From: Candidatus Woesearchaeota archaeon
Lineage (GTDB): Archaea > Nanobdellota > Nanobdellia > Pacearchaeales > GW2011-AR1
Assembly: GCA_964493655.1 (NCBI GenBank)
Contig: CAZBOY010000002.1
Span: forward strand, 8,178 to 43,754
Reading direction: 5' to 3'
DNA: 35,577 nucleotides
Under the pieces are notes generated by a model. That model was given only the letters and a program-made list of their open reading frames with translations. It was not told the DNA's origin and did no database searches. The position numbers and the translations under genes are program-made. This document shows positions 1-29,862 of the stretch, in pieces (within the stretch, counting starts at the first letter, position 1; every line of letters starts with the position of its first letter).

Positions 1-26
1 CTGCAAGAATAGCTAAAGAAGCAGGG

Positions 27-830
27 ATGTCTGATAGAGCAAGAGAGTTGTTTGATGATGCAATTGAAAGAGAAATGGGGGAAAGAAACACAAATTATGC
101 TGCAAGAATAGCTAAAGAAGCAGGGATGTCTGATAGAGCAAGAGAGTTGTTTGAAAAAGATTCAGGAAAACGAGAGAAAAAGAAAGATTTTTATGGGGCT
201 GCAAATTCTGCAGAAGAAGCAGGAATGCCGGATAGAGCGAGAGAGTTGTTTGAAAAATATGCATTAACTCAACCGAGATCCATTGCTAAAGATTGTCATT
301 TTGATAACAAAAAGATATTAGAAAGAGTTGAAAAACTGGCAGTAAAAACAGGAATAGAAAAAGAAAGGTTATATCGTGAAATAATAGGGGCTTATACAAA
401 AAGATGGGCCAACATCCCTGGAGCAGGCTATAAAACTGCCGCAGAATTTGCAGAAGAAGCAGGAATGCCTGCTGAAAGAATAAGAGATCTAAATCTGCAC
501 GCTATAGAAGGTTTTGCACGAAATAGTTATGCAGATGCAATAAGATTAGCAGAAGAAGCAGGATTAATAAAATTATTAGGGGAGGGGGTTAAAGAAAACC
601 TCCTCAGAAATATAAAAGAAGAAAGAGATTCTGAAGAAACTGCTGAACTTGCAGAAAAATTAGGAATGCCGGATAGAGCGAGAGATTATTATAACAAAGC
701 AATGCAAGAATCTGAGGCCGACGGAAGATTTGAAAATGCAGCGAAACTTGCAGAAAAATTAGGAATGCCGGATAGAGCGAGAGATTATAGAGAACTCAAA
801 AAATTGGTTGGGACAGATTTTCTTTTTTAA
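27..830 (+). CDS. Alpha-helical (TPR/SNAP-like) 33-aa repeat protein, 5'-truncated by the window
   Basis: Frame is open to the window edge. Recurrent AAxxAEEAGMxDRARE motif at 33-aa spacing, with DNA-identical blocks at 1-55/100-154 and 646-689/745-788. Confidence 0.75.
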   Translation: MSDRARELFDDAIEREMGERNTNYAARIAKEAGMSDRARELFEKDSGKREKKKDFYGAANSAEEAGMPDRARELFEKYALTQPRSIAKDCHFDNKKILERVEKLAVKTGIEKERLYREIIGAYTKRWANIPGAGYKTAAEFAEEAGMPAERIRDLNLHAIEGFARNSYADAIRLAEEAGLIKLLGEGVKENLLRNIKEERDSEETAELAEKLGMPDRARDYYNKAMQESEADGRFENAAKLAEKLGMPDRARDYRELKKLVGTDFLF

Positions 831-12651: not shown

Positions 12652-12668
12652 TAGACTATCTCTTAGAT

Positions 12669-12754
12669 AGCTTGATCGGGATGAGAACCTTCGAGTCCGA
12701 ACAATTTGCTTTTGACAACTCTATTCATAATCTTCGAAAAGTGAATTGTGAGCA
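12669..12754 (+). repeat. tRNA-3'-associated mini-element, copy 1, between 27-bp direct repeats (12642-12668 and 12755-12781)
   Basis: GGTCCGCGCATAGACTATCTCTTAGAT is duplicated; the interior is homologous to 29772-29850. Confidence 0.85.
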
Positions 12755-12768
12755 GGTCCGCGCATAGA

Positions 12769-12927
12769 CTATCTCTTAGATTTCCTTGGCAGAAATCTTA
12801 AAAAATGAAGGAAATGTAGGAAGTTCAAATAATTCCAAGCACTTGCACCATCCATAGCTCCAGTGAAGCCTAAAAATCCCAAGAATCCAAGAAATCCTAA
12901 CCAGCCAAGCCCTCTTAAATTTTTCAT
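12769..12927 (-). CDS. 52-aa small membrane protein with LGFLGFLGF repeats (DUF3796-like)
   Basis: Translated by eye: MKNLRGLGWLGFLGFLGFLGFTGAMDGASAWNYLNFLHFLHFLRFLPRKSKR. GAGG SD-like site and TATA upstream. The family name is from recall. Confidence 0.7.
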   Translation of the reverse strand: MKNLRGLGWLGFLGFLGFLGFTGAMDGASAWNYLNFLHFLHFLRFLPRKSKR

Positions 12928-17889: not shown

Positions 17890-18026
17890 TCTTAAACTTT
17901 TATTTTTTCTTTTTTTATGAATACAAAATCTTAAAAACCATTTAAAATTAATATAATCATCCCTACGGAATTTCCACTCCGAGAATTATGTAGGGAAATA
18001 AAACAAAAATAGTTCGGAGTAAAAAT

Positions 18027-18171
18027 CCCGCCGTAGCTCAGGGGTAGAGCATGCGGCTGTAGAATTAGCATGGACATTCTGCTGTATTGCAGATAGAATG
18101 AAATGTGAAACGCCCTTGGCACTGGTTCAGCAGAACCCGCAGTGTCCCCAGTTCGAATCTGGGCGGCGGGA
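18027..18171 (+). tRNA. tRNA-Tyr(GTA) with a 73-nt intron at 37/38 (18063-18135); integration target
   Basis: C1-G72 acceptor CCCGCCG/CGGCGGG, anticodon stem TGCGG/CCGCA with CT GTA G, T arm CCCAG-TTCGAAT-CTGGG. The CTGT/GCAG helix with an AAC bulge forms a relaxed BHB. Confidence 0.93.
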
Positions 18172-18226
18172 TTAAGATTTAGTTAGAAAAGTAAGGGTTT
18201 ATAAAACCTGTAATATTTAGGATTAT

Positions 18227-19288
18227 ATGAAACAAGAATATCCAAGATATAAGCAAGGAGAGTTAGATTTGATTGAGAAAAAAATTTGTGATAAAGACAA
18301 AGTTGCATTAAACGAATTTACAAAAAAATGTTCTATAACTTCTGGAGAAAGAAAAGTTAAACAAATTAGAAAATTAATACTCCAACTCTTTGATGTAACT
18401 CAAATACCATTAACACAGCAGACAAAAGAAACAGCAGATAGTTTTTTAGTTCTGCTTAACAAGTGTGATAAAAGTTACTGGACTAAAGACGAGATTAAAA
18501 TTTATGTTAAGAACTTTTTGTTGAATTATTATAAGGATTACGCTATGGTTGAAAATTTTAAATCAAGTGGGAAAAAAGGATTAAACCCGCAGAAGATAAC
18601 CGAGAACAATCTAATAAGTGAAAAGGATGTTGAGAAGATGTTAAGGTTCGCACAAAGTTATAAAGAAAAATGTTATCTGCTTCTTGTATTTCAAACAGGA
18701 GCAAGACCTCAAGAACTTGCAGAGTTAAAATGGTCTGAAGTTAAGTTTGAAGATAAATATGCAGAAGTAACTTTATTCTCAAATAAAACTAAACAAAGCA
18801 GAAGTTTTCCTATTGTTGAAAAAACTAAAGAGGCTTTGTGGGAATGGAAACAGCATTATTCTTTTCAAGATATTAAACCTAATGACTATGTTTTTCCTTC
18901 AAGATGGAGAAATAAACCAATTACTTCTGCAGGACTTAATAAGATGTTAAGAAGAATGAGTGAATCTGCAGGACTTAATAAGGATGTTTGGAATTATCTC
19001 TTTCGGCATACCAGAGCAACAAGATTATATGAAGAACTGCCTCAGCAGATTGTTGAAAAATTAATGGGTCATAAAAATATGGCTGGGATTTATGCACACA
19101 TTAGTTCAAAAAAAGCAAGAGAAGAAATGCTTAGTAAAATTTATAAGATTGATGATATGCCCCAAGAAAAAAAGAACGAGTTAGAGTTAGAAGTCGCAAC
19201 ATTAAAAAAGAATTATAAAAATCTGCATAAAGAATTTCAAAAGTTTGCTGGTCGTGTTGTGGCTACGAATATCAGTTCTAAGATTTAA
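18227..19288 (+). CDS. int: Tyrosine recombinase/integrase
   Basis: TGARPQEL (catalytic R), YLFRHTRAT, LMGH, IYAH (catalytic Y); located immediately after attL. Confidence 0.93.
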   Translation: MKQEYPRYKQGELDLIEKKICDKDKVALNEFTKKCSITSGERKVKQIRKLILQLFDVTQIPLTQQTKETADSFLVLLNKCDKSYWTKDEIKIYVKNFLLNYYKDYAMVENFKSSGKKGLNPQKITENNLISEKDVEKMLRFAQSYKEKCYLLLVFQTGARPQELAELKWSEVKFEDKYAEVTLFSNKTKQSRSFPIVEKTKEALWEWKQHYSFQDIKPNDYVFPSRWRNKPITSAGLNKMLRRMSESAGLNKDVWNYLFRHTRATRLYEELPQQIVEKLMGHKNMAGIYAHISSKKAREEMLSKIYKIDDMPQEKKNELELEVATLKKNYKNLHKEFQKFAGRVVATNISSKI

Positions 19289-19336
19289 ATCAAGCCATTA
19301 CAAGCATTTATAAAGGTTAATAATCTTAATAATCTT

Positions 19337-19516
19337 ATGGTTAAACACGTTTTTGCAGTAAGTTTAGATAAAGAAGTTATAGATAAAGTTAAAAAAATTC
19401 TTAAAAAGTGGGGCGGTTCTGTTAGTGCTATTGTTAATCAACTTTTAATAGAATGGTTAATTAAAAACGACCCAGATTATAAAATAAAAAAAGAGGAGGC
19501 AAGTTCTAAAAAATAA
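19337..19516 (+). CDS. Ribbon-helix-helix DNA-binding protein (59 aa)
   Basis: Translated by eye: MVKHVFAVSLDKEVIDKVKKILKKWGGSVSAIVNQLLIEWL...; TATA about 30 nt upstream. Confidence 0.75.
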   Translation: MVKHVFAVSLDKEVIDKVKKILKKWGGSVSAIVNQLLIEWLIKNDPDYKIKKEEASSKK

Positions 19517-19574
19517 TTAAATAAAAAGAACCCCCGCAAGTTATAAGGCGTGCAAGGGTGGGCAATCTCATAAA

Positions 19575-19976
19575 ATGAAATCACTTAATAGAACCAAACA
19601 AAGCAACTTTTTAAATTCTTCGGCTCAATCTAAGAGTAACGACTTTTTTTTGGCGGAGGCACGTGTGGAGAAGTGTAAGCAAGACCTTAAGAAATACTTT
19701 CATCCCCAAAACACAACCCTTAGTAAGCGATTTGAAATAATCTATAAAATTTTTGGTTTGAATGATGAAATGATTGCGAGAGAATTGGGAATAGACCGAA
19801 CAACTATGAACAGATACAGGAGAGGGGTTTTTATTCCTGTAACAAATATGAAAAGATTAATTTCTCAAGCAATTACAAAACTTTGTAATTATCCTGTGGA
19901 TTCTTCTGTTTTATGGGGTAGTGATTTATTTTTTCAAGAATGGAAAGAAAATAAATTAAAGGGTCTGGGAAAATGA
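19575..19976 (+). CDS. XRE/Cro-type HTH regulator
   Basis: LNDEMIARELGIDRTTMNRYRRG. Confidence 0.8.
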   Translation: MKSLNRTKQSNFLNSSAQSKSNDFFLAEARVEKCKQDLKKYFHPQNTTLSKRFEIIYKIFGLNDEMIARELGIDRTTMNRYRRGVFIPVTNMKRLISQAITKLCNYPVDSSVLWGSDLFFQEWKENKLKGLGK

Positions 19977-20431
19977 AACAAATTAACATAACCCAACTAA
20001 ACGAATACACCTGTCAAAGAACGGGATGTAATAATATCATTAAGGGTTGTGAGGATATTGTTATAATTCAAAATGTTTTTCCTGTTTGTTCGGATTTATG
20101 TAAGTTTTTGGTTATATTTAAGATTCTTTGGAGTTATGATGATTTAAGTATAAATTATTTAATAAAACTGCTTCATCTTAAGCAAAGGGGATATTATAAT
20201 CGTGAGAAACGTGTTTTTGAACTTTCAAAGAAGGTTTATCAAATACTTTTATCGTCGGTAAATGATGTTACTCATACTCATACTCATAAAATCTTGAGTA
20301 TGAGTAAAGGTTACTTCCAACGTGTTACTCATTACTCATACTCACTCATATCTATAGATATGAGTGTGAGTAACACGTTGAGTAACCCCATTTTGAGTAA
20401 AAGTAAAGGAGGTTTAGAAAAATGGATGTAA
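19973..20431 (+). CDS. Hypothetical Zn-ribbon protein; the C-terminal third overlaps the origin-like repeats
   Basis: CQRTGC...CSDLC; the ATG overlaps the upstream stop (ATGA). Confidence 0.55.
   Translation: MKQINITQLNEYTCQRTGCNNIIKGCEDIVIIQNVFPVCSDLCKFLVIFKILWSYDDLSINYLIKLLHLKQRGYYNREKRVFELSKKVYQILLSSVNDVTHTHTHKILSMSKGYFQRVTHYSYSLISIDMSVSNTLSNPILSKSKGGLEKWM
20268..20400. repeat. Putative replication origin: TACTCA/TGAGTA iterons in nested palindromes
   Basis: 13-bp arms 20268-20280/20295-20307; 14-bp arms 20318-20331/20367-20380 enclosing a perfect 24-bp palindrome at 20343-20366; directly upstream of the primase-helicase. Confidence 0.7.
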
Positions 20432-22191
20432 TAAGCAAAAACCTACCAAACGAAGCAAAATACCTCCAATTAATAAAAAACACAAAGAAACCTATAAAAC
20501 AAGAATGGACATCAATACCACACAACCTTAAAGATAAAGCAAACCAACTTCTTAAACAAGGTTATGGCATAGGTTTTCTTTTAGGTGATGGGTATGTTGG
20601 GGTTGATTGTGATTCTATTGAACTTGAACTTGCAGTTGAACAATTAATTAAAACTCCCACATATACTCAAAAATCTGCTGGGAGGGGTATGAAACATTTT
20701 ATCTTTAAATGTAACTTTGATAAAAACTTAGGACTTAAACATAATAATCAAGAAGTTGGGGAGATATTATGTTCAGGCAGACAGATTATTCTTGCTCCAA
20801 CAAAGATACAAGATAAACAATACACTATCCTTAATGATATCCCTCCCGCAGAGATAACAAAAGAAGAACTTTTATCTGTTATTTTGCAGTTTGAGAGTAA
20901 GATAACTCAAAAATCAGTTACAGAAACAAAAAAACTTTATGAGAAAGCGGATATTGATGATTTAAGCATTACTTCTATTATTTCAACAACAGGAATGCAA
21001 CAGGATAGTAGGGGGCAGTATTTTGGAGAGAATACTTGGCACGGCTCAACAACAGGTCATAATTTTTATATTAACCCTCAGAAAAACCTTGCTTATTGTT
21101 TTAGGTGTGATTGTGCTATCTCTCCCGCCAAAGCCATCGCTTTAAATGAAGGTATAATATCAAATTGTTCAGATGAGTTAAGAGGAGAGGATTTTATTAA
21201 AACCCTTGAAGTCGCAAAAACAAAATACAATCTTAAAGATAAAAAGGAATTAAGTGAAAAAGAAAAACAAGATACACCTCTTAATTTTTGGACAATCCAA
21301 GATTATGAAAATTACAAACCCCCAAAAAATTACATAATTGAAAACTTATTGTTTCCTTCTGAAATTGCTATGAATTACGGACAGACCAGTTCTTTCAAAT
21401 CCTTTTATAATTTATATCAAGCGGTTTGTATTTCTGCTGGTAGAAAATTCTTAAATAAATTCAGAACTAAAAAACAAGCAGTTGGAATTTTATCTGCTGA
21501 AAATTCTATTGCTGTTGATAAGGATAGAATTAAAAAAATTATGCGGGGTTTAAGAATAAGAAAAAGAAATATACCCCTTTATATTCTCCCAAGAAGTGAT
21601 TGTTTTGATATCTTAAACTTAAAATTCAAAGCAAAACTAATTAAATCCATTCAAAAGAAAAACATTAAGTTATTGTTCCTTGATACAATCAACCCTTTAA
21701 CACCTGAGATTGATGACAACAAAGCCAGAGATGTAACCAGAACTTTTAATGAATTTTTAAAATTACTTGCAGATGTTTATGGAGTTTCAGTTGTATTTCT
21801 ACATCACACAGACAAACAAGGCAAAGCATTTTTAGGCTCAACTAAGTGGAAAGCAAACTGCGATTGTGTTACAAGAATAGAAAGAAATGGATTAAAAGAA
21901 AGTTTCTCTTTGTATAATGAAAAAAACAGAACAGGAGAAACCAACACCTTAAAGATTAATATTATGTTTGGCGAAAAGGATATTTGTTTTTCTTTAGTTG
22001 AGGAAACTGCTCCAGAGATATTCAGCAAAAACAAAAAGATGACACAAGCAGAATTTTTTGATTTAAAATTAAAGGAACTTTGCGAAAAGGATATGGAGAG
22101 AGCAAAGATATTTGAAATTTTTGAAGAGAATGGGATTAAATTTTCAAGAGCAAGTTTAGACAGAGCAATTAAAATCTGGAGAATAAAATGA
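20422..22191 (+). CDS. Primase-polymerase (AEP prim-pol) + Zn finger + RecA/DnaB-like (AAA_25-type) helicase replication protein
   Basis: GIGFLLG..YVGVDCD, SAGRGMKHFIF, H...NFYIN....AYCFRC, Walker A GQTSSFKS, Walker B LLFLDT, HHTDK...GS; SD AAAGGAGG. Confidence 0.88.
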   Translation: MDVISKNLPNEAKYLQLIKNTKKPIKQEWTSIPHNLKDKANQLLKQGYGIGFLLGDGYVGVDCDSIELELAVEQLIKTPTYTQKSAGRGMKHFIFKCNFDKNLGLKHNNQEVGEILCSGRQIILAPTKIQDKQYTILNDIPPAEITKEELLSVILQFESKITQKSVTETKKLYEKADIDDLSITSIISTTGMQQDSRGQYFGENTWHGSTTGHNFYINPQKNLAYCFRCDCAISPAKAIALNEGIISNCSDELRGEDFIKTLEVAKTKYNLKDKKELSEKEKQDTPLNFWTIQDYENYKPPKNYIIENLLFPSEIAMNYGQTSSFKSFYNLYQAVCISAGRKFLNKFRTKKQAVGILSAENSIAVDKDRIKKIMRGLRIRKRNIPLYILPRSDCFDILNLKFKAKLIKSIQKKNIKLLFLDTINPLTPEIDDNKARDVTRTFNEFLKLLADVYGVSVVFLHHTDKQGKAFLGSTKWKANCDCVTRIERNGLKESFSLYNEKNRTGETNTLKINIMFGEKDICFSLVEETAPEIFSKNKKMTQAEFFDLKLKELCEKDMERAKIFEIFEENGIKFSRASLDRAIKIWRIK

Positions 22192-22346
22192 AATGCGAAT
22201 TTAAATCCTGCAGAAAAAAAGCCACAGCATTTTTTAACAGAAAAGAATACTGCAATTTTCATTATCACCAACTCAAAGGAAAAATAAACAAAAAAGAACG
22301 GATGAAAAATAACCAACTTGCTAAGAAAAATAAAGGAGAACAATAA
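22188..22346 (+). CDS. Small C3H Zn-finger protein (52 aa)
   Basis: MKCEFKSCRKKA...YCNFHY; overlaps the helicase stop (ATGA). Confidence 0.6.
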   Translation: MKCEFKSCRKKATAFFNRKEYCNFHYHQLKGKINKKERMKNNQLAKKNKGEQ

Positions 22347-22496
22347 AAATGAAATCAAAACACAACTCAATTAAAGTTTTAGGTGGTTTTCAGTCTTTTT
22401 CGGGGTATTTCGGTATAAAAACCAGACACCATCCCCTTAAATTAATTTGTAAGGGTCGCATTTCAAGTAATATGATGAAAGGAGGTTTATAGTAAA

Positions 22497-22664
22497 ATGG
22501 CAGAAGAACAAAGCAAAAAGAAGTTTAGTGTTGGGTTCGTTATGGATTTGAATGAGAGAACAGAACTCTTAGAAGTGGTGAAGAAACAAAAACTTAGTCC
22601 ACCCTCCTTTGTGAAGTGGGCAACTTGGAAACTCGTCCGAGAACTTAAAGCAGAGGCTCAATAG
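22497..22664 (+). CDS. Small RHH-like protein (55 aa)
   Basis: MAEEQSKKKFSVGFVMDLNERTELLEVVKKQKLSPPSFVKWA...; strong SD AAAGGAGG; hairpin AGGCTC-AATA-GAGCCT at the stop. Confidence 0.65.
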   Translation: MAEEQSKKKFSVGFVMDLNERTELLEVVKKQKLSPPSFVKWATWKLVRELKAEAQ

Positions 22665-22828
22665 AGCCTTTCCTTTAGAGTTTTAACCCAGAACAGCGAA
22701 CAACATACCTAATTATTTGAGTAAAACACTTATACCAACACCACACACCTTTGAAGGAGTTGTTTATTAGGGGGGTTGATTCGGGCTGGGAAGTGGGCGG
22801 GTATCATACTTAATTAAATGTATTGAAA

Positions 22829-23236
22829 ATGAAACAAGAAGAAAAAAAGACACTTTCCACTTGGGTTTGGATTATTGTAGTAGTCTTAATCTTGATAAGT
22901 CTGGGAAATCTCTTTTTTGCAATGATAGGATTGGCAATAGGTTTTGCGTGTGGTTATAAGAACTATGAATGGGCAAGAGAAATAAAAAAGAATACAGACA
23001 TAGCGTTCTTAATAGGATATTGCTTTGGACTTCTCGGACTATTGGGATATTGGATTTATTATAGAAATAAACCTAAAAAATCAGTTGAGCAAAAGGAAGA
23101 ACTAATAAAAGCACAAAAAGAAAAGATTGAAAAATTTCAGGGAAAAGATAATGATAATTTTACTTTTATGTTAAAAGTAGCGGAGGTTCTTATTGTCCTT
23201 GTTTTAATCTATTTTTTAATTAGGTGGATTTTCTAA
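22829..23236 (+). CDS. Multi-TM membrane protein (cargo)
   Basis: Three to four hydrophobic segments. Confidence 0.75.
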   Translation: MKQEEKKTLSTWVWIIVVVLILISLGNLFFAMIGLAIGFACGYKNYEWAREIKKNTDIAFLIGYCFGLLGLLGYWIYYRNKPKKSVEQKEELIKAQKEKIEKFQGKDNDNFTFMLKVAEVLIVLVLIYFLIRWIF

Positions 23237-23281
23237 ACATTTTTAAGGTTTGATTGTATGAATGATTTATTCCGAACTTTT

Positions 23282-23842
23282 TTATGATTTATAACATCTA
23301 AAATCAACTATTTCAAAAGTTTGGTTTAAAATATCACGCAGACCACTTTTTACTTCTTCCATATTTACTCTATTAAGAACTAAATCAACTCTGTAAATGA
23401 TTGTTTCACCTATTGTCCCATCTTTGGAAATCAGAGTTTTAGAATATCTTAATCCATCACAATAATTATAATTTTGGTTTTCACCTTCCTCACTCCCCCA
23501 CCTACATTCATAAAAATACCCCACATTCCTATCCCCTATTGCCTCAATACCTGTTCCATCTTTCCAAGTAGAAGTCCAATATCTCAAGAGAGTCTGTTGT
23601 TCAGTAGGAGAACTATATACTGGTTTTGGAAATTCAATAATAATTTTTTCAGGGATTATGTTTTTAATACAATAATCATCATTTAAGGTTGCTTGTTTAG
23701 TTAATTCGCTTCCTACTTTTAAAGGGGCGTTCTTAATGCTTTTGATTATATCAAATCCAAAAACATAATAACATAGGAATAAAATTCCAATTATAATTAA
23801 GATTGTAATCCATACCTTGTTTAGAGTTTCAGACGAAACCAT
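23282..23842 (-). CDS. Membrane-anchored Cys-containing extracellular protein (cargo)
   Basis: N-terminal TM and a beta-rich domain with several Cys; the only minus-strand cargo gene. Confidence 0.75.
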   Translation of the reverse strand: MVSSETLNKVWITILIIIGILFLCYYVFGFDIIKSIKNAPLKVGSELTKQATLNDDYCIKNIIPEKIIIEFPKPVYSSPTEQQTLLRYWTSTWKDGTGIEAIGDRNVGYFYECRWGSEEGENQNYNYCDGLRYSKTLISKDGTIGETIIYRVDLVLNRVNMEEVKSGLRDILNQTFEIVDFRCYKS

Positions 23843-23981
23843 AACTATTTCATTAATTCAAAGTTTAAAAACATTATCAAAAGCCTCTTGCGACAGGTTT
23901 TATTTTTTCATATTGGAAGCCCCATATTTGCGACATAACCTTATTCACAAAGATTTAAATTATATTGGGACACATAGTTTT

Positions 23982-24236
23982 ATGGGATTTTGGGATTGGT
24001 TTATAAAAAAACCTAAAAAGAAGATAAGCGAGAGAAATAGGGGTTGGATTAGAGTAGATGCTCCTAAAATGCCTCGTTGGGCAAGGGATACTTTATTCAA
24101 TAGGGTTAATAAGTCAAGTGCTAAAGGAATAGCATATACAAAAGGTAATCATTATTATTACAAGGTTGTTATGAAACCTGATCTTAATTCAGGTAAATTT
24201 GACTTTTATTTTTATAAAAAGAAAATGAAAAAATGA
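23982..24236 (+). CDS. Small basic hypothetical protein (MGFWDWF...)
   Basis: ATG 28 nt after TTTAAATT; the upstream extension in the ORF track overlaps divergent promoters. Confidence 0.7.
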   Translation: MGFWDWFIKKPKKKISERNRGWIRVDAPKMPRWARDTLFNRVNKSSAKGIAYTKGNHYYYKVVMKPDLNSGKFDFYFYKKKMKK

Positions 24237-24487
24237 AAACAGAAGTATGGCAATATGATAAATTTTGGAAATTTTTTATAATTTACATCCCTTTGTTTAT
24301 ATTTTCAATGTTTTTGTTCATTTGGGTTGCGATAATACCCTGGATCAATTCGGAATATTTGATAACCAATAGTTTATCCGCTAAATTGATTCTTAGTGGA
24401 ATTGCCATTTTTTTTATGGTTATGGGAATTAACAAATTTGTTAAACAAATTAAAATTTATAATAAACTCAAGAAAAAAACAAAATGA
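24233..24487 (+). CDS. Two-TM small membrane protein
   Basis: Two hydrophobic helices; ATGA coupling. Confidence 0.7.
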   Translation: MKTEVWQYDKFWKFFIIYIPLFIFSMFLFIWVAIIPWINSEYLITNSLSAKLILSGIAIFFMVMGINKFVKQIKIYNKLKKKTK

Positions 24488-24693
24488 CAGAAACAATAAC
24501 AACTGGCGGATTAAAGGAATTTGTGCATCCTAAAAATTACAAGTTTGAGAAAGACCCAGAACATTTAGAACAAGAACAAAAGATTCATGATGCTTATGAA
24601 GAGCATTATAGAATAAAGAGGAGAAACAGAATGATTAAAATTGGAGCCGTTGTCTTAATTATTTTAACTGCCTTGTATTTTTTATTAAGATGA
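24484..24693 (+). CDS. Small C-terminally anchored membrane protein
   Basis: Basic stretch followed by a TM at the C-terminus; ATGA coupling. Confidence 0.7.
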   Translation: MTETITTGGLKEFVHPKNYKFEKDPEHLEQEQKIHDAYEEHYRIKRRNRMIKIGAVVLIILTALYFLLR

Positions 24694-26402
24694 AAAACCA
24701 TAAACATATTTGTACCTATTGCGCGTCTCACAAAGGAGATAAGAAAAAGAAAGATGCTTCTCGTTGTAAGTATTGTGGAGAATATTATTGTAATGAACAT
24801 AGAAAACCAAAATTTCCTTCGATACCTTTATTTGAATCAGTAGGAAAAGAGGCAGAGGAAATTATGGAAAATTATCATAGTGCTGGGGGGCATCCTTGTT
24901 TTCCATACTTTTTTTCAGAAGATGAAAAAAAACAAAATCAAAAATCCAAAGAAACAGATGATTACTTAGAAGCATTAGACTCTTTAAAAAATCAATCAAG
25001 GAATATTTTTACACCTATAAAAAAGGTTACGGAAAGTTTTGAAGATGAATTTGAAAATAAGGGGAATAACTTTCAAATAAATCTTTCAAATCCAAGAAAA
25101 TCAGTCAACCAACCCAATAGACTTTCCGAAAGAAAAAAACCAAGATTATCAAAATTTATTTTAGAGAATAAATTTACTTTATCTATAGTCTTATTTTTTT
25201 TGGTTTTAGTATTCCTTTTTTGGATGGGCTTCTTCGACGATTATTTAGCAGGACATCCTCAACTTGGTGGACTTACGAATAACTCTTTAGAATCTCGGGA
25301 GATTACCAGTTATGGATTTGATAAGATTAATTTGTTGAGGATATCAAGCAGAGTAACTAAATTAAATTTTAATTTGAAGTCTTATAATTTGGCCGTAGGT
25401 TTATCGAAGCATTTCTATAACCTTAATAAATATTCTTTATCAGATTCAGAACTTTTAGGATTTGAAGGGAAATATAATATAGATGATTTCAGATATATTT
25501 CTAAAAAATTTGAGGGTTTAACAAAGGACTCAATGGATTCTGTGATTAGTGAATGGGAAACTAAACCATTTATATTTGAACTTATTTTGGGCGGTTCATT
25601 TAACGATGGTGCTTTTGGATGTTACCTTGATGTTTGTACGATAGTCCTTAAATCTACACCTGTTGTTCCTGCAGAAACTTATAAACCTGTAATAACCCTC
25701 CCTAAAAATGAAAATGTAAAAGAAGACAATAAAAATATATACGAAGAGATTAAAGGTCTTTTGTCTAAAGATTCAGAAAAATATCAAACAAATCCTAAAA
25801 CTGTTAAATTATCTTTGATAGGTGATTTTATTGTTTACCGGGGGGTAAATGATTATCTTGCTGGATTAGATAGAAGTATAAGTTACTATTACACCCCGCC
25901 AACATCTAAAGATTTTATTTTGCGAGATTTAGATAATAAAGTTCAGAAAGATTATCTTAATCTATTAGTTGATAAAATTAAGGCTAAGTCTGACGATCCA
26001 GACCAACAAGCAAGAACTGCTATAAGTATGGTTCAGGCAATTCCTTATGATTGGGATGCATTTAATTCTGGGAATGTTGATGGAAGGTATCCTTATGAAG
26101 TACTTTATGATATGAAAGGTGTTTGTATGGAAAAAGCTGATCTGCTAGCATTTTTATTAAGGGAATTAGGTTATGGAGTAGCAATATTTGAATATAATGC
26201 CGAGAACCACAGGGCAGTTGGAATACAATGTGAAAAAGGAAATTACAACACCCAGTATTGTTTTATTGAAGCTACAAATTCTTATCCCATAGGACAAATC
26301 CCCGAGGGTTATGTTGGTGGGGCAGATATAAGAAATGCAAATCCTGAAGTTGTAGTGATAAGCGGGGGGAGGACTTATCTACTGAGATTAGCTTCTAATT
26401 AA
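24690..26402 (+). CDS. AN1-like Zn finger + TM + degenerate CAP-like + transglutaminase-like cysteine protease domain protein
   Basis: CTYC..CKYCGEYYCNEHR; TM at about residues 163-181; YPYEVL..KGVCMEKADLL...NHRAVGI...YCFIEAT (C-H-E triad). Confidence 0.8.
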   Translation: MKNHKHICTYCASHKGDKKKKDASRCKYCGEYYCNEHRKPKFPSIPLFESVGKEAEEIMENYHSAGGHPCFPYFFSEDEKKQNQKSKETDDYLEALDSLKNQSRNIFTPIKKVTESFEDEFENKGNNFQINLSNPRKSVNQPNRLSERKKPRLSKFILENKFTLSIVLFFLVLVFLFWMGFFDDYLAGHPQLGGLTNNSLESREITSYGFDKINLLRISSRVTKLNFNLKSYNLAVGLSKHFYNLNKYSLSDSELLGFEGKYNIDDFRYISKKFEGLTKDSMDSVISEWETKPFIFELILGGSFNDGAFGCYLDVCTIVLKSTPVVPAETYKPVITLPKNENVKEDNKNIYEEIKGLLSKDSEKYQTNPKTVKLSLIGDFIVYRGVNDYLAGLDRSISYYYTPPTSKDFILRDLDNKVQKDYLNLLVDKIKAKSDDPDQQARTAISMVQAIPYDWDAFNSGNVDGRYPYEVLYDMKGVCMEKADLLAFLLRELGYGVAIFEYNAENHRAVGIQCEKGNYNTQYCFIEATNSYPIGQIPEGYVGGADIRNANPEVVVISGGRTYLLRLASN

Positions 26403-26405
26403 AAA

Positions 26406-26627
26406 ATGAAAGACAAAACTAAATTTCTTTTAATTATCATTATTATCCTTATTGTTGTTTTCTATTTTTTAATTCTTCCAAATGTTTCCCCTGATTTCAA
26501 TTTAAGTATGGCTATTGGCATTTCTTTATCTTGTGGTTTAGTTGTGGCTTTGCTGAAAATGTTATCCGAGATTAACTATCATAAGTATACAGAATGGTTA
26601 AGGAGTTTGTTTTCTAAAGATTTTTAA
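26406..26627 (+). CDS. Two-TM small membrane protein
   Basis: Two hydrophobic segments. Confidence 0.7.
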   Translation: MKDKTKFLLIIIIILIVVFYFLILPNVSPDFNLSMAIGISLSCGLVVALLKMLSEINYHKYTEWLRSLFSKDF

Positions 26628-26649
26628 GTCTTGATTCTCTTTAATTCTT

Positions 26650-27042
26650 ATGGCAAAATGTGAGTCTTGTAATAAAAACATTTCATTATGGAATACCTAT
26701 TTTGATAATGAAACAGAGTATTGTAAGGGTTGTTGGCAGAAGAAGAAAGACAAAATAAAGCAAGTTGAGGTTAAGCAAGAGGATAATGATAATAGTAATA
26801 AAATAAACAAGGATAAAGAATTGGTTAGGGGAATTTATGAAAAAAGAAAAAATGAACAAGATTTAAACTTAAAAGAACGTTTGAGGGTTGCGGGTATTCC
26901 TTTCTGGTTATTTATTCTTACGATTGGGTTGGTTATAAAATTGTGTGTTGATTTTAGGGTCTTAAATTTTGAATCCTACCAATTTAATATCGAAAATGAT
27001 TATGGTCTTGGAAAGCAATATACAAAACCTAACCCCCACTAA
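26650..27042 (+). CDS. Zn-ribbon + TM hypothetical protein (C-terminus possibly disrupted)
   Basis: CESC...CKGC and one TM; the ORF ends inside the inverted-repeat site at 27031-27061. Confidence 0.6.
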   Translation: MAKCESCNKNISLWNTYFDNETEYCKGCWQKKKDKIKQVEVKQEDNDNSNKINKDKELVRGIYEKRKNEQDLNLKERLRVAGIPFWLFILTIGLVIKLCVDFRVLNFESYQFNIENDYGLGKQYTKPNPH

Positions 27043-27167
27043 TTAAGGTGTGTGTGGTTGGCTCTATTAAATAGTTTTTCGGGTGTGAAAATTTTTTTCA
27101 CGGAGTATTTATAAATATTAAACGCCTCTAATAATTAGGGTCGGGATTGAAAGGAGGAGATTTAAAA

Positions 27168-27332
27168 ATGGAACAGAAAAAACAAAACAAATGTGTGATA
27201 AATATTAAGAGAGATTGGATAGGTAGAATCACAAGAGCAAAATTCAAAGGTTGTGACCTTGAACAATTGGAAGCAACATTAAAGAAAAGAAACATAAATT
27301 TAGGCGATTTTAATTTAATTAAAAAAGGATAG
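27168..27332 (+). CDS. Small hypothetical protein (54 aa)
   Basis: Strong SD AAAGGAGG before the ATG at 27168. Confidence 0.6.
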   Translation: MEQKKQNKCVINIKRDWIGRITRAKFKGCDLEQLEATLKKRNINLGDFNLIKKG

Positions 27333-27362
27333 ATTTATTAATGTTTTCTGGTTTTGTTATTT

Positions 27363-27743
27363 ATGGGTTTATTTGATTTCAAAATGCCGAAGTTTAAAGC
27401 ACCTAAAGTTGAACGTTTAAAAGTCGCAAGGTTGCATATGACGAAAGTTGGAGATAGAACTTCAACATCTGCTCAAAGAAGAAAATTAAAAGAAGCTGTT
27501 GGATTCAAATGTCAAAGATGTGGGAAAAAGTTTGACGGGAGATTATTAGAAATCCATCATAAAAAATCAATCGCAAGTCATAAGAATAAACTTACTGGAG
27601 TAGACTTTCCTGTTTATTCTTTAGGTAAAAAGATTAAACCTAAATATGACAGAAAAAGCAACCTTGAAGTAGTTTGTATTTATTGCCACGATAAAACTAA
27701 GAAACAAAAGAAAAAACCAAAACCTCTCTGGAGTAGATATTAA
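27363..27743 (+). CDS. HNH endonuclease
   Basis: CQRCG...LEIHH...SNLEVVCIYCH. Confidence 0.85.
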   Translation: MGLFDFKMPKFKAPKVERLKVARLHMTKVGDRTSTSAQRRKLKEAVGFKCQRCGKKFDGRLLEIHHKKSIASHKNKLTGVDFPVYSLGKKIKPKYDRKSNLEVVCIYCHDKTKKQKKKPKPLWSRY

Positions 27744-27749
27744 AGAAAA

Positions 27750-28058
27750 ATGAATAAAAAAGCAATAGGATTAGATTGGGTTATATTTATTATAATTCTA
27801 ATACTTATTGTTTTATATATGATTTTGAATAATGTTTATTTAACTCATACCACTTTTGAAACAGAATTTTGGGAATGTGAAAATGGGGAGCCGATAGCAA
27901 AGGAAATGTTTTATATAGAAAGTTGTGATGCTACTTGTGGTGCGAGTAGTAGTTCTTGGGTTAGTAAAACAAAGAATGTTCTTTCTTGTGAGGATGATAA
28001 AGCTGTTTGTGAATGCAAAACAACTGTGTGGATTACTTACATCTCTCCGTTGTTTTGA
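27750..28058 (+). CDS. Pilin-like protein (class III signal peptide), Cys-rich
   Basis: MNKKA followed by a hydrophobic helix; six Cys. Confidence 0.65.
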   Translation: MNKKAIGLDWVIFIIILILIVLYMILNNVYLTHTTFETEFWECENGEPIAKEMFYIESCDATCGASSSSWVSKTKNVLSCEDDKAVCECKTTVWITYISPLF

Positions 28059-28230
28059 CTAATTCTTCTAAAATACTTGCAGTGCCTTACTTCTTGGATT
28101 GGATGTTAAGTTGTTTTTCTAAACATTTATATACTATTTTGGGATATTTAAAATGTGAAATTCAGTAGGGAGTTTTGTTTTTATTTGACATTTTCAAAAG
28201 TTATTTAAAGTATCTTGTTTAATTTTATCT

Positions 28231-28395
28231 ATGGGAAATCTTGGATTTTGGATTATTTTGTCTTTACAGGCGATAAGTATATTTCTCTTAGTAAGTTTTC
28301 TTTTATCTTCATATACTCCATTTTCCCTAATTCTTGGTTTAATACTCGGAGGAACAACCGCAGGAATTGAATACGGGATATATACAAAAAAATAA
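28231..28395 (+). CDS. Two-TM 54-aa membrane protein between 17-bp direct repeats
   Basis: Translated by eye: MGNLGFWIILSLQAISIFLLVSFLLSSYTPFSLILGLILGGTTAGIEYGIYTKK; TATA about 28 nt upstream. Confidence 0.65.
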   Translation: MGNLGFWIILSLQAISIFLLVSFLLSSYTPFSLILGLILGGTTAGIEYGIYTKK

Positions 28396-28445
28396 TTTTT
28401 TGACATTTTCAAAAGGTTTTTATAAGACATTTATTTCTATTAATT

Positions 28446-28778
28446 ATGAAAAGAAACACCCTTGCCATACTCTTTATAATCTCTATTTTAATCATAATTG
28501 GTTTATTGTCATTAGTTGTAGTAAGACTATATTCTCCGATAACCCATACATATTTTCTTACGGAAGAACAACAAAAATTGTTAATTGGTTCGATTAGTGG
28601 GGGTATAGAGTATAATTCTGGGACGGGTGAAGAATATACTGAAAAATGTTTAAATGCTTGTGCTAAGAGGTGCGTTTCTTCAGGATATAAATATGATTTT
28701 TCATTTATAGTTTCTCGAGATAACTTTCCCGAATGTTTAGGTTCACAAAATTGTTGTATGTGTGGGTGTATTGAATAA
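28446..28778 (+). CDS. Membrane-anchored Cys-rich small protein
   Basis: N-terminal TM; CLNACAKRC...C....CCMCGC. Confidence 0.7.
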   Translation: MKRNTLAILFIISILIIIGLLSLVVVRLYSPITHTYFLTEEQQKLLIGSISGGIEYNSGTGEEYTEKCLNACAKRCVSSGYKYDFSFIVSRDNFPECLGSQNCCMCGCIE

Positions 28779-28895
28779 ACCATTTTAGTGATGGTTATTA
28801 AGTTTTATTTCTTTTGGACTGGTTGTTAAGTTTATCAAAGTTCAGTAGTGAGAACTCGGGGTTAAGTATTTAAACATGTTTTCGCTGTTAAAAAC

Positions 28896-29411
28896 ATGAG
28901 AAAGGAAGGTTCTTGGTCGCAGGTTAGGATTGCTGTGGGTATTGTTTGTCTTGTAGTTCTTGTTGGTTTTTTCTTATTAAATTTTACAGATAAGGGTTCT
29001 AAAGTAACTGCTAATGTTATAAAGGGTTTAAAGGATTGTGAAATGAAACAAGTTCCTTATCAAGTTGAAGAAGAGTATGATTATTATTTAAAAAATCAAG
29101 TTATTTCAGGTTATCAAACTGAAGAAGTAGAATTGTTTGGAAAGGGTGTTTATAGGGAAGGAATTGTTAAAGTAATGAACACAGATAACGAGGCGGGATG
29201 GTTTATAGTAACTTTTAATTGGGAAACCTTATATGATAAAAAAACTGATAGTGTAAGGCATTATATAGAACCTGATGAAACTATTGAATTCGTTTCCATA
29301 TATGATAATGACTTAGGAGAAGATACTAAATTCAAATATTCTGTTCAGTCTAATGTTATAAAGAAAACCAGAATGGTTACAAAATACCGAACAGAAGAGG
29401 TTTGTGAATAA
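28896..29411 (+). CDS. Membrane-anchored beta-rich extracellular protein (possible class III signal)
   Basis: MRKEG followed by a TM and a TANVI motif; N- and C-terminal Cys. Confidence 0.75.
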   Translation: MRKEGSWSQVRIAVGIVCLVVLVGFFLLNFTDKGSKVTANVIKGLKDCEMKQVPYQVEEEYDYYLKNQVISGYQTEEVELFGKGVYREGIVKVMNTDNEAGWFIVTFNWETLYDKKTDSVRHYIEPDETIEFVSIYDNDLGEDTKFKYSVQSNVIKKTRMVTKYRTEEVCE

Positions 29412-29412
29412 A

Positions 29413-29625
29413 ATGAATAAAAAAGCTGGAGCAGGACTTGTAATTTTTATAATTATAATTCTTATCGTTGCAGTTTTAGTTTGGGGTTATGTTGGTGGTG
29501 AAGAAGCAAAAAAAGTTGGAGTAACCTGTGATATGGGTGTTGGTGAAACTTTTTGCTGGAAGTGGCATACGAATGCTATTGGTAGTGTAGGGGAAGCATT
29601 AGGAAATATGTTTAGGGGTGGTTAA
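29413..29625 (+). CDS. Small pilin-like protein (class III signal peptide)
   Basis: MNKKA-GAGLVIFIIIILIVAVLVW; a Cys pair. Confidence 0.7.
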   Translation: MNKKAGAGLVIFIIIILIVAVLVWGYVGGEEAKKVGVTCDMGVGETFCWKWHTNAIGSVGEALGNMFRGG

Positions 29626-29767
29626 ATATTAATGAACACTCCCAATCGCAGCAAGCTGCGGGGTAAACCCCAGGGGAGAATTTAGGTTTAAACCCTAAAA
29701 AAATAACCAATTAGAAATTCTGGGCGGCGGGATAATAGGGGATTAAAGATCCCCTTTAATTTTCTCT

Positions 29768-29862
29768 CCCAGATGAGAACTTTCGAATCCGAACAATTTG
29801 CTCTTTGAACTATTTTATTTATGATTTTGAAAAGAATGAATTGGGAGTTAGGCGGCGGGATA
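29768..29862 (+). repeat. tRNA-3'-associated mini-element, copy 2 (native tRNA-Tyr trailer), ending in a duplicated GGCGGCGGGATA
   Basis: 29/31 identity to copy 1 over GATGAGAAC-TTCGA-TCCGAACAATTTGCT, with similarity continuing to the end; 12-bp repeat at 29723-29734 and 29851-29862. Confidence 0.85.

What the first reader, a model, noticed from the sequence alone, without database searches (positions are those of the whole stretch)
18158..29733. PICI/satellite-like or plasmid-like integrative element in a probable DPANN archaeon
Seen: the order integrase - RHH - XRE HTH - Zn finger - palindromic origin - prim-pol/Zn finger/helicase - small regulators - accessory block with HNH, in 11.6 kb. 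I recognise no capsid, terminase, packaging ATPase, relaxase or VirB4. Established: int-regulators-pri/rep-accessory at this size is the layout of phage-inducible chromosomal islands and of some archaeal integrative plasmids. Inference: a poorly described family of DPANN elements that may rely on a helper virus or cell contact to spread. The core genes look intact, so it may be active.
Basis: partly seen in the sequence, partly recalled or inferred. Interest (0 to 1): 0.72.

Follow-up and report, generated by a model that had tools for sequence, protein, structure and literature searches.

The report
Capsid-less integrating replicon in tiny archaeon
An 11.6-kb mobile element sits in a tRNA gene of a small-genome lake archaeon, carries intact genes for integration and DNA replication plus mostly membrane-protein cargo but no recognisable coat or mating genes, and likely spreads by borrowing the particles of related, predicted spindle-shaped viruses.

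Summary
Observation confirmed. An 11,576-bp element lies between two 15-bp att copies (18158-18172, 29719-29733) at the 3' end of an intron-bearing tRNA-Tyr. One lake run holds a short contig with the empty site, and 3 of 4 relatives with the upstream gene have tRNA-Tyr without an integrase. Integrase catalytic residues are intact. The replicase joins a pRN1 ORF904-type prim-pol to a RepA/AAA_25 helicase and follows an 11-copy bidirectional hexamer array, which recurs with other hexamers in relatives. No capsid, terminase, spindle-type ATPase, relaxase or VirB4 was found; the largest cargo protein is CAP plus transglutaminase, not a fusogen; 12 of 15 cargo ORFs have predicted membrane helices. 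It is not a PICI (no terS or capsid modifier found). It fits the known archaeal class of cryptic integrated elements. New here: its replicase clade also holds elements with a spindle-virus-type ATPase or a predicted spindle-type coat protein, so hitch-hiking on such viruses is the likeliest route of spread, but that is inferred; no circle was seen. The scan noted a similar ATPase-bearing element in another genome. Wu et al. 2024 (DPANN mobile elements) could not be read and may cover the family.

The parts
18026..18172 (+). tRNA-Tyr(GTA) with intron; integration target, intact after insertion
   Evidence: Rfam RF00005 18027-18171; ARAGORN with introns
18158..18172 (+). attL core, 15 bp (3' end of the tRNA)
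   Evidence: identical to 29719-29733; 2 copies in the genome
18227..19288 (+). Tyrosine integrase, 353 aa, gene not split; R160, K187, Y257-x-x-R260, H282, Y289
   Evidence: PF00589; these residues invariant in 32 of 32 aligned homologues; 115 database hits including itself, many at 60-75% identity
19337..19516 (+). Ribbon-helix-helix protein, 59 aa, likely repressor
   Evidence: weak Pfam/PHROG matches
19575..19976 (+). XRE-like HTH protein, 133 aa
   Evidence: phrog_8 E 1e-3; 29 hits, 11 at E<=1e-10
19973..20431 (+). Four-cysteine (likely Zn-binding) ORF, 152 aa; relatives are 95-106 aa and also precede the replicase; the C-terminal third reads through the repeat array
   Evidence: blastp to L014 (E 9e-8) and L011; alignment
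20269..20399 (.). Predicted replication origin: 11 hexamer copies in both orientations forming nested palindromes
   Evidence: 0 of 500 shuffles; arrays at the same place in relatives; inverted-repeat E 3e-9
20422..22191 (+). Replicase, 589 aa: prim-pol, Cys/His Zn-binding segment, RepA/AAA_25 helicase with a family-wide atypical Walker A, C-terminal predicted DNA-binding domain
   Evidence: PF09250, PF13481; family profile matches pRN1 ORF904 structures, E 4e-11; Walker A tally
22188..22664 (+). Three small ORFs (52, 47, 55 aa); the first has cysteines and a counterpart after the replicase in L014 and L012
22823..24693 (.). Cargo block 1: five small ORFs, four with predicted membrane helices (23282-23842 on the minus strand)
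   Evidence: homologues of 23282-23842 in 3 of 150 family genomes and at L006; of 24484-24693 at L052 and L079
24690..26402 (+). 570-aa membrane-anchored protein: AN1-like Zn finger, one membrane helix, CAP/SCP domain, transglutaminase-like domain
   Evidence: Pfam weak; AlphaFold model, mean pLDDT 67; Foldseek hits to SCP/CAP proteins and TGases; matches in 49 of 150 family genomes, nearly all to the transglutaminase part
26406..27332 (+). Cargo: 73-aa two-helix membrane ORF, 130-aa Zn-ribbon plus membrane helix, 61-aa soluble ORF
   Evidence: no curated family
27354..27743 (+). HNH endonuclease, 129 aa
   Evidence: PF01844 E 4e-8; HNH PHROGs
27750..29625 (+). Cargo block 2: five membrane-anchored ORFs, including a 171-aa predicted Ig-like protein (28896-29411)
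   Evidence: homologues of the 171-aa protein in 7 of 150 family genomes, no integrase seen in the stretches fetched around them
29719..29733 (+). attR core, 15 bp
   Evidence: contigs of runs X1 and X5 begin their match exactly at 29719
29734..29861 (+). Host miniature repeat unit just outside the element; follows tRNA-Tyr directly in the empty site
   Evidence: 82% identity over 77 bp to the unit after tRNA-Gly at 12680; kept in the empty-site contig

Best explanation
This is an integrated, capsid-less mobile element in tRNA-Tyr that is present in some chromosomes of the population and absent from others, is predicted to excise and replicate as a plasmid from its own iteron origin with a pRN1-type primase-polymerase/helicase, and likely reaches new cells only by being packaged by a co-infecting spindle-shaped virus of the same replicon family. 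Steps. (1) Shown: att repeats, whole integrase gene with full catalytic set, empty site in a run and in relatives. (2) Inferred from tyrosine-recombinase biochemistry: the integrase recombines attL and attR to give a circle and restores the tRNA on integration. (3) Inferred from homology and conserved position: the replicase binds the hexamer array with its C-terminal domain, unwinds, primes and hands over to the host replisome; RHH and XRE proteins keep this quiet. (4) Shown: no recognisable transfer genes; the cargo is host-type surface proteins plus an HNH. (5) Inferred, weakest step (about 0.4 on its own): spread by hitch-hiking in spindle-type virions, as reported for the Saccharolobus satellites. 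The confidence given is for the whole chain; steps 1-4 alone I put at about 0.85.
For: att and target. Empty site: a 177-nt contig of run X5 (depth 4.8) carries the 15 tRNA-Tyr letters that precede attL, the core and the right flank to 29880 (letters match 18143-18157 and differ from the similar tRNA-Gln); run X2 has contigs across both attL and attR; G002, G004, G007 have tRNA-Tyr after the same 453-aa gene and no integrase in the fetched stretches. Replicon: (hexamer arrays directly before the replicase in L013, L014, L015, L044 at <=1 of 500 shuffles, L017 6 of 500). No virion or mating genes: Pfam, PHROGs, NCBIfam; profiles of the relatives' ATPase, coat-like protein and TerL over 116 six-frame segments gave at most 7.8 bits; of 164 ORFs from five related loci and LSV-48N only integrase, Cys-motif ORF, replicase and the small Cys ORF match the element. 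Link to spindle-type viruses: a 40-row helicase clade (support 100/99) holds this replicase with those of L013, L020, L044 (ATPase carriers) and L014 (coat-like gene); the L044 ATPase matches only the lemon-shaped virus LSV-48N among 50,697 phage records (E 5e-13); L044 is an 11.2-kb element between 12-bp repeats at tRNA-Arg, with ATPase and no coat-like gene found; a family genome holds ATPase and coat-like gene together (L116).
Against: No attP join in the five runs with cover (X1-X4; X1, X3, X5) and element depth not above the flanks, so replication is not shown. The empty-site contig has only 15 letters beyond the core (30 with it, under the tool's 31-letter bar), comes from one run and may be a strain that never had the element. 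Described archaeal satellites carry a coat protein, an ATPase or both (10.1101/2025.02.15.638363, section 13 and Discussion); this element has neither. No helper found in G000 (coat profile best 12.6 bits, ATPase 13.8 bits, no TerL; assembly 85% complete). The coat call for L014 is itself inferred: PHROGs, PDB sequence search and three fold searches gave nothing specific. Five of 11 relatives show no hexamer array. The tree is unrooted with open inner forks and does not give a direction of gain or loss.
Confidence: 0.45

Rival explanations
1. Stranded element: a former spindle-type provirus or satellite that lost its virion genes, took up host surface genes and now passes on vertically (or rarely by free DNA or vesicles); the empty site reflects lineages without it or simple loss.
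For: No transfer genes; no circle, depth not raised; core shared with L014, which has a coat-like gene; cargo homologues sit in ordinary chromosomal contexts such as next to aminoacyl-tRNA synthetase-like genes; Cys-motif ORF has run on through the origin.
Against: Integrase and replicase are near full length (353 vs median 368; 589 vs median 602 aa) with catalytic motifs kept; att cores are identical; other elements of the clade without virion genes (L008, L009, L016) occur at different sites in different hosts, which suggests that the gene-poor form moves.
Confidence: 0.3
2. Mobilisable integrative plasmid that moves by cell contact, using a host or co-resident conjugation or DNA-exchange system, helped by its own membrane proteins.
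For: 12 of 15 cargo ORFs have predicted membrane helices against 233 of 857 genome ORFs; the Atlas model of 23282-23842 has faint NTF2/VirB8-like neighbours (TM 0.35, model pLDDT 0.45, under the tool's bar); several ORFs begin like archaeal class III signal peptides (by eye, recalled motif).
Against: No relaxase, VirB4/VirD4 or other second ATPase; the cargo genes are not shared with the other elements of the family and recur singly in chromosomes, unlike a conserved transfer operon.
Confidence: 0.12
3. Complete provirus of an unrecognised enveloped (spindle-shaped or pleomorphic) type whose small membrane ORFs are the virion proteins.
For: Many small membrane proteins; replicon shared with predicted spindle-type viruses; the coat profile is insensitive at distance (best LSV-48N hairpin proteins 9-10 bits, best element ORF 7.8 bits); the 171-aa protein's nearest Atlas cluster is half viral (score 0.84, TM 0.61).
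Against: No spindle-type ATPase, which PMC9608457 lists among genes present in all fuselloviruses; the only ORF of spike or fusogen size folds as CAP plus transglutaminase; the best-scoring ORF has one membrane helix, not a hairpin; no IMG/VR locus for replicase or integrase.
Confidence: 0.07
4. PICI-like satellite of a tailed archaeal virus that redirects terminase packaging, with the HNH as packaging helper.
For: int-regulator-replicase order and size as in PICIs; HNH present; more distant Pacearchaeota-family elements carry TerL without a recognised capsid (L005, L048).
Against: No terS, TerL or capsid-modifier match; TerL carriers fall outside this replicase clade; regulators are co-directional; no terminase in G000.
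Confidence: 0.06

Closest known systems
Cryptic integrated elements (CIE) of Thaumarchaeota (PMC6563490, passages read)
   Same: tRNA/att-bounded, integrase as the only constant gene, under 20 kb, MGE-type prim-pol replicase, RHH/HTH regulators, no virion or conjugation genes, variable cargo.
   Different: Prim-pol is fused to a RepA/AAA_25 helicase, not the superfamily 3 helicase reported there; DPANN-like host; cargo dominated by small surface proteins; relatives link it to spindle-type viruses.
pRN-family replicons and the fusellovirus satellites pSSVx and pSSVi (10.1101/2025.02.15.638363 passages; PMC9608457 passages)
   Same: ORF904-type prim-pol; plasmid-like replicon without a full virion module; pSSVi, by the title of its paper, integrates and spreads with a fusellovirus.
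   Different: pSSVx carries B251 ATPase and A154 homologues, this element none; different helicase domain; twice the size (sizes recalled); packaging never observed here. pSSVi gene content not checked.
[quoted passage not shown]
   Same: Plasmid-type primase-helicase in a DPANN host; relatives L044 and L020 fit the pattern (ATPase plus replicon).
   Different: SRCEs are 2.7-9 kb circles defined by coat protein and/or ATPase; this element is integrated and has neither.
Phage-inducible chromosomal islands (PICI) (PMC10085698, passages read)
   Same: Integrase, regulator, primase-replicase order; about 10 kb; accessory region; no tail or lysis genes.
   Different: No terS or capsid-morphogenesis gene found; archaeal host; only three of five core components, the level the authors call unreliable (type C).
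pNOB8-type (class II) archaeal integrases (PMC8371274, passages read)
   Same: Gene stays whole on integration; R...YxxR...Y motif.
   Different: att core 15 bp against 40-50 bp given for Sulfolobales pNOB8 integrases; no conjugation module; no phylogeny with pNOB8 Int was run.

Membership tests
Cryptic integrated element (CIE) | Integrase and att direct repeats at an integration site | tested here: met
   empty site
Cryptic integrated element (CIE) | No recognisable virion, casposon or conjugation signature genes | tested here: met
   Pfam, PHROGs, NCBIfam, own profiles, fold of the largest cargo ORF; distant coat proteins among small membrane ORFs not fully excluded
PICI | Integrase, regulator (alpA/merR/stl-like) and primase-replicase in this order | tested here: met
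   the regulators are RHH and XRE-like, matches weak
PICI | Small terminase subunit | tested here: not met
   no terS family over threshold in Pfam, PHROGs, NCBIfam; the one 'terminase small subunit' PHROG row (E 0.034) is the HNH domain
PICI | Capsid-morphogenesis/capsid-modifying gene | tested here: not met
   no match; the few soluble unknown ORFs are under 140 aa
PICI | Induction and packaging by a helper phage | not testable with these tools
   needs culture or virion-fraction reads
pSSVx/SRCE-type spindle-virus satellite | Plasmid-type replicon (RCR Rep or primase-helicase) | tested here: met
   ORF904-type prim-pol with helicase and repeat array
pSSVx/SRCE-type spindle-virus satellite | Spindle-virus AAA+ ATPase | tested here: not met
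   profile from four relatives plus LSV-48N: best 3.0 bits over 116 six-frame segments
pSSVx/SRCE-type spindle-virus satellite | Hydrophobic helical-hairpin major capsid protein | tested here: inconclusive
   profile of the L014 family: best element segment 7.8 bits, but distant LSV-48N hairpin proteins score only 9-10 bits
pSSVx/SRCE-type spindle-virus satellite | Encapsidation in helper particles; abundant circular form | tested here: inconclusive
   no attP join, depth not raised, but only low-depth contigs were available
Provirus (spindle-shaped or pleomorphic) | Spike/fusogen or tail protein of 500+ aa | tested here: not met
   only ORF of that size is CAP plus transglutaminase
Integrative conjugative/mobilisable element | Relaxase, VirB4/VirD4 or T4SS genes | tested here: not met
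   none in Pfam, PHROGs, NCBIfam; an oriT used in trans was not tested
pNOB8-type integrase class | Intact gene after integration and R...YxxR...Y motif | tested here: met
   R160, Y257-x-x-R260, Y289; motif from PMC8371274 passage

The most novel reading that the evidence does not exclude
Pacearchaeota-like archaea host an undescribed replicon family that runs from spindle-shaped proviruses through ATPase-only satellites to elements like this one with no virion gene at all; these last ones ride in the helper's particles and deliver cassettes of surface proteins (CAP-transglutaminase, Ig-like, pilin-like anchors) that change how the symbiont attaches to its host or resists viruses. This would be a gene-transfer vehicle for envelope genes in one of the most reduced archaeal lineages.
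Probability: 0.25. Interest if true: 0.72.

Novelty: new member of a known kind. Interest (0 to 1): 0.45.

Why it matters
How archaea with sub-megabase genomes gain genes is open; a provirus survey found only 30 provirus regions in Thermoplasmatota and Nanobdellota together (PMC13573593, passage read). Elements like this are missed by virus finders because they have no hallmark genes. This one has exact ends, an intact recombinase and replicase, a defined origin and an empty site in the same habitat, so it is a ready test case, and its relatives point to spindle-type viruses of these hosts. As a single element it is an ordinary kind; the interest lies in the family.

Tried and rejected
IMG/VR scans with the replicase, integrase (32, 75), relatives' ATPase (76) and coat-like protein (97) returned no loci; the pattern method is insensitive, so this is weak. 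PADLOC: only HNH-domain matches to ZorE, no defence system. Sigma-70 promoter and terminator scan: at chance level and not suited to archaea. A 17-bp imperfect inverted repeat at about 22735 and 27047-27063 is unique in the genome at two edits but absent from the related loci and not significant in self-BLAST: not used. Folds of the L014 coat-like protein gave a plain helical hairpin with unspecific matches; a Nitrosopumilus spindle-shaped virus protein at rank 12, E 1.5, is not evidence. Atlas search of 23282-23842: scores under 0.9, low-confidence model. No RNA holder listed. Run X6 gave no cover at attR. First read laying with loose settings produced many short joints that are likely other organisms; none joined the att sites. 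Same-genus genome G001 (59% complete) lacks the upstream gene, so no close empty-site comparison. Close integrase relatives (60-75% identity) could not be placed in genomic context: 0 of 400 order genomes and 0 of 300 class genomes had one that close; the best were G206 (39%) and G122. Considered and rejected: that the right end is the degenerate tRNA-tail copy near 29850 (the empty-site contig keeps that stretch); that the odd Walker A marks decay (only 4 of 32 homologues have G before K); XerA (the integrase scores 91 against a cut-off of 220, and another recombinase lies on C27). CRISPR spacer matches were not searched. Wu, Liu and Ni 2024 (doi 10.1038/s41564-024-01839-y) is not held; its supplements may list this family.

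Full report
Observation. The element runs from 18158 to 29733 (11,576 bp) between two identical 15-bp repeats, the only two copies in the 713-kb assembly. The left copy is the 3' end of an intron-bearing tRNA-Tyr(GTA). Its GC content is 30.8% against 33.0% for the rest of the window. It holds 23 ORFs in my reading, 22 on the plus strand: integrase, RHH, XRE-like HTH, a four-cysteine ORF, a 589-aa replicase, three ORFs of about 50 aa, and 15 cargo ORFs. None has a paralogue elsewhere in the assembly by tblastn. The host is inferred to be Pacearchaeota-like: a 713-kb, 85% complete genome, and the named homologues of replicase and integrase are mostly Pacearchaeota or Woesearchaeota.

It is an insertion, and the site can be empty. 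Four of five relatives queried have the 453-aa upstream gene; in three of these four (G002, G004, G007) tRNA-Tyr follows it with no integrase in the 2-14 kb fetched downstream, and G003 has tRNA-Asn there. Six lake-water runs hold the element's words. In run X2 contigs span both attL and attR. In run X5 a 177-nt contig at depth 4.8 joins the 15 tRNA-Tyr letters before attL to the core and the right flank, which is the empty attB site (checked against tRNA-Tyr and the similar tRNA-Gln). A contig of X1 starts exactly at 29719, as a branch between attR and attB would predict. Limits: one run, 15 letters beyond the core, and excision cannot be told from a strain without the element. No attP join was seen, and depth over the element was about equal to or below the left flank in four of four runs, a figure the tool says is no copy number.

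Core. The integrase gene is whole and keeps R160, K187, Y257-x-x-R260, H282 and Y289, invariant in 32 of 32 aligned homologues; this is the motif given for pNOB8-type integrases (PMC8371274, passages). It has 115 database hits including itself, many at 60-75% identity and mostly on short contigs. The replicase has 47 hits including itself; its family profile matches solved structures of pRN1 ORF904 (E 4e-11) in the N-terminal part and AAA_25 in the C-terminal part. Walker A is atypical across the family (G before K in 4 of 32). The profile finds 19 of 400 order genomes at E<=1e-20, all in the host's family, some by one domain only. Directly upstream lie 11 copies of a hexamer in both orientations (20269-20399), unmatched in 500 shuffles and unique in the genome; of 11 relatives examined, four have equally strong arrays at the same place, one weaker (6 of 500), one marginal (31 of 500) and five none; the hexamer differs between elements. 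A position-conserved, sequence-variable array before a replicase is what an iteron origin looks like (established for phage P4 and plasmids; recalled).

Cargo. Twelve of 15 cargo ORFs have a predicted membrane helix by a simple hydropathy rule, against 233 of 857 ORFs genome-wide and 119 of 505 small ones (the background includes spurious ORFs). The 570-aa ORF models as CAP/SCP plus transglutaminase-like domains; 49 of 150 family genomes match it, nearly all in the transglutaminase part, and in 8 of the 11 loci inspected the neighbours look like aminoacyl-tRNA synthetase genes (read by eye). The 171-aa and 186-aa ORFs have homologues in 7 and 3 of 150 genomes, in host or island contexts without an integrase in the stretches fetched. 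No defence system was recognised. So the cargo is drawn from the host lineage's pool of envelope genes and is not a conserved module of the element family.

Hidden transfer genes. Pfam, PHROGs and NCBIfam show no capsid, portal, terminase, relaxase or VirB4. Profiles built from the relatives' ATPase, coat-like protein and TerL score at most 7.8 bits over 116 six-frame segments. The coat test is weak at distance, since LSV-48N's hairpin proteins score only 9-10 bits. No helper was found in G000.

Family. Loci with related replicases have an integrase, a wHTH or RHH gene, often an Sm-like gene, a Zn-finger gene, the replicase and often a serine resolvase. Three kinds of tail follow. L013, L020 and L044 carry an ATPase; the L044 protein matches one record among 50,697 phage genomes, the lemon-shaped virus LSV-48N (E 5e-13), and PHROG 5484. 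SSV1 B251, a DnaA-like ATPase, is in all fuselloviruses and in pSSVx (PMC9608457, passages). L014, which shares the Cys-motif ORF, the replicase (38%) and the small Cys ORF with this element, encodes a 99-aa two-helix membrane hairpin with 66 database hits; I read it as a spindle-type coat protein because of its shape, its best matches in LSV-48N and its occurrence with the ATPase in L116, but family and fold searches did not confirm this. L005 and L048 carry TerL with no capsid recognised. L008, L009 and L016 show none of these in the stretches held. A helicase-domain tree of 49 rows (five duplicate proteins and L111 left out) places this replicase in a 40-row clade (100/99) with the ATPase carriers, L014 and the gene-poor elements; TerL carriers fall outside; inner forks are open, some branches are long and the tree is unrooted.

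Mechanism. Shown: site-specific insertion, intact core, empty site, no recognisable transfer genes. Inferred: integrase-mediated excision, plasmid-like replication from the array, control by RHH/XRE. Most likely route of spread, weakly inferred: packaging by a spindle-type helper, as for pSSVx (10.1101/2025.02.15.638363, section 13) and, by its paper's title only, pSSVi. The main rival is a stranded remnant (0.3).

Comparison with what is known. It meets the working definition of archaeal cryptic integrated elements (PMC6563490, passages), fails PICI membership on terS and capsid modifier (PMC10085698, passages) and lacks the ATPase of pSSVx/SRCE satellites, the coat gene being unresolved. Nine full-text searches (listings and abstract starts seen) turned up no description of such a family in Pacearchaeota, but Wu et al. 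2024 on DPANN viruses and mobile elements was seen only as a citation in PMC13573593 and may contain it. Earlier scan notes: the repeat unit outside attR was reported separately (e1-7042498), and an ATPase-bearing, coat-less element in another genome was read as a spindle-virus satellite (e1-6949443); neither is independent support.

Verdict. Real, well-bounded, polymorphic element of a known kind, in a family that seems undescribed and is tied to predicted spindle-type viruses. Interest 0.45.

Noticed in passing
window 29734-29861 and 12652-12781; also G000 C33, C10, C6, C7, C18: Dispersed miniature repeat units of about 110-155 bp, several directly behind tRNA genes and ending in a second copy of the tRNA tail (27-bp duplication at tRNA-Gly). 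The element inserted between tRNA-Tyr and its unit.
   Followed up: partly
L116 (G244:C23:4000-23872): Virus-like region with spindle-type ATPase, coat-like hairpin gene, primase-type replicase and large membrane proteins; candidate helper virus of this host family.
   Followed up: partly
L044:7195-18510 (G297:C3): 11.2-kb element at tRNA-Arg between 12-bp repeats with the same hexamer array type, replicase, spindle-type ATPase, resolvase and no coat-like gene found: an integrated SRCE/pSSVx-like satellite candidate.
   Followed up: partly
L005:11519-13352 (G021:C13); L048:12935-14509 (G412:C4); L010:2155-2658: Small integrase/primase islands carrying a terminase large subunit but no recognised capsid or portal, next to restriction-modification genes in L005; L010 has a fragment similar to the L048 protein.
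   Followed up: partly
L014:11150-11446 and alignment A6: Abundant family (66 hits) of about 100-aa two-helix membrane proteins with a class III-like leader; two contig lengths recur for two different members, suggesting paralogue pairs.
   Followed up: partly
window about 22735-22751 and 27047-27063: 17-bp imperfect inverted repeat around the first cargo block, unique in the genome at two edits, not in related loci.
   Followed up: partly
window 28181-28233 and 28396-28448: 53-bp direct repeat (72%) upstream of two neighbouring cargo genes, promoter-like; may mark cassette-style gene capture.
   Followed up: no
alignment A1, replicase residues 320-327: Walker A lacks the glycine before lysine in 28 of 32 homologues while K-S/T is kept.
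   Followed up: no
G000 contigs C32, C35-C38, C41, C42: Short contigs with 38-46% GC in a 32% GC genome; probably misbinned.
   Followed up: no
window 1-830: ORF with 33-aa (99-bp) repeats.
   Followed up: no
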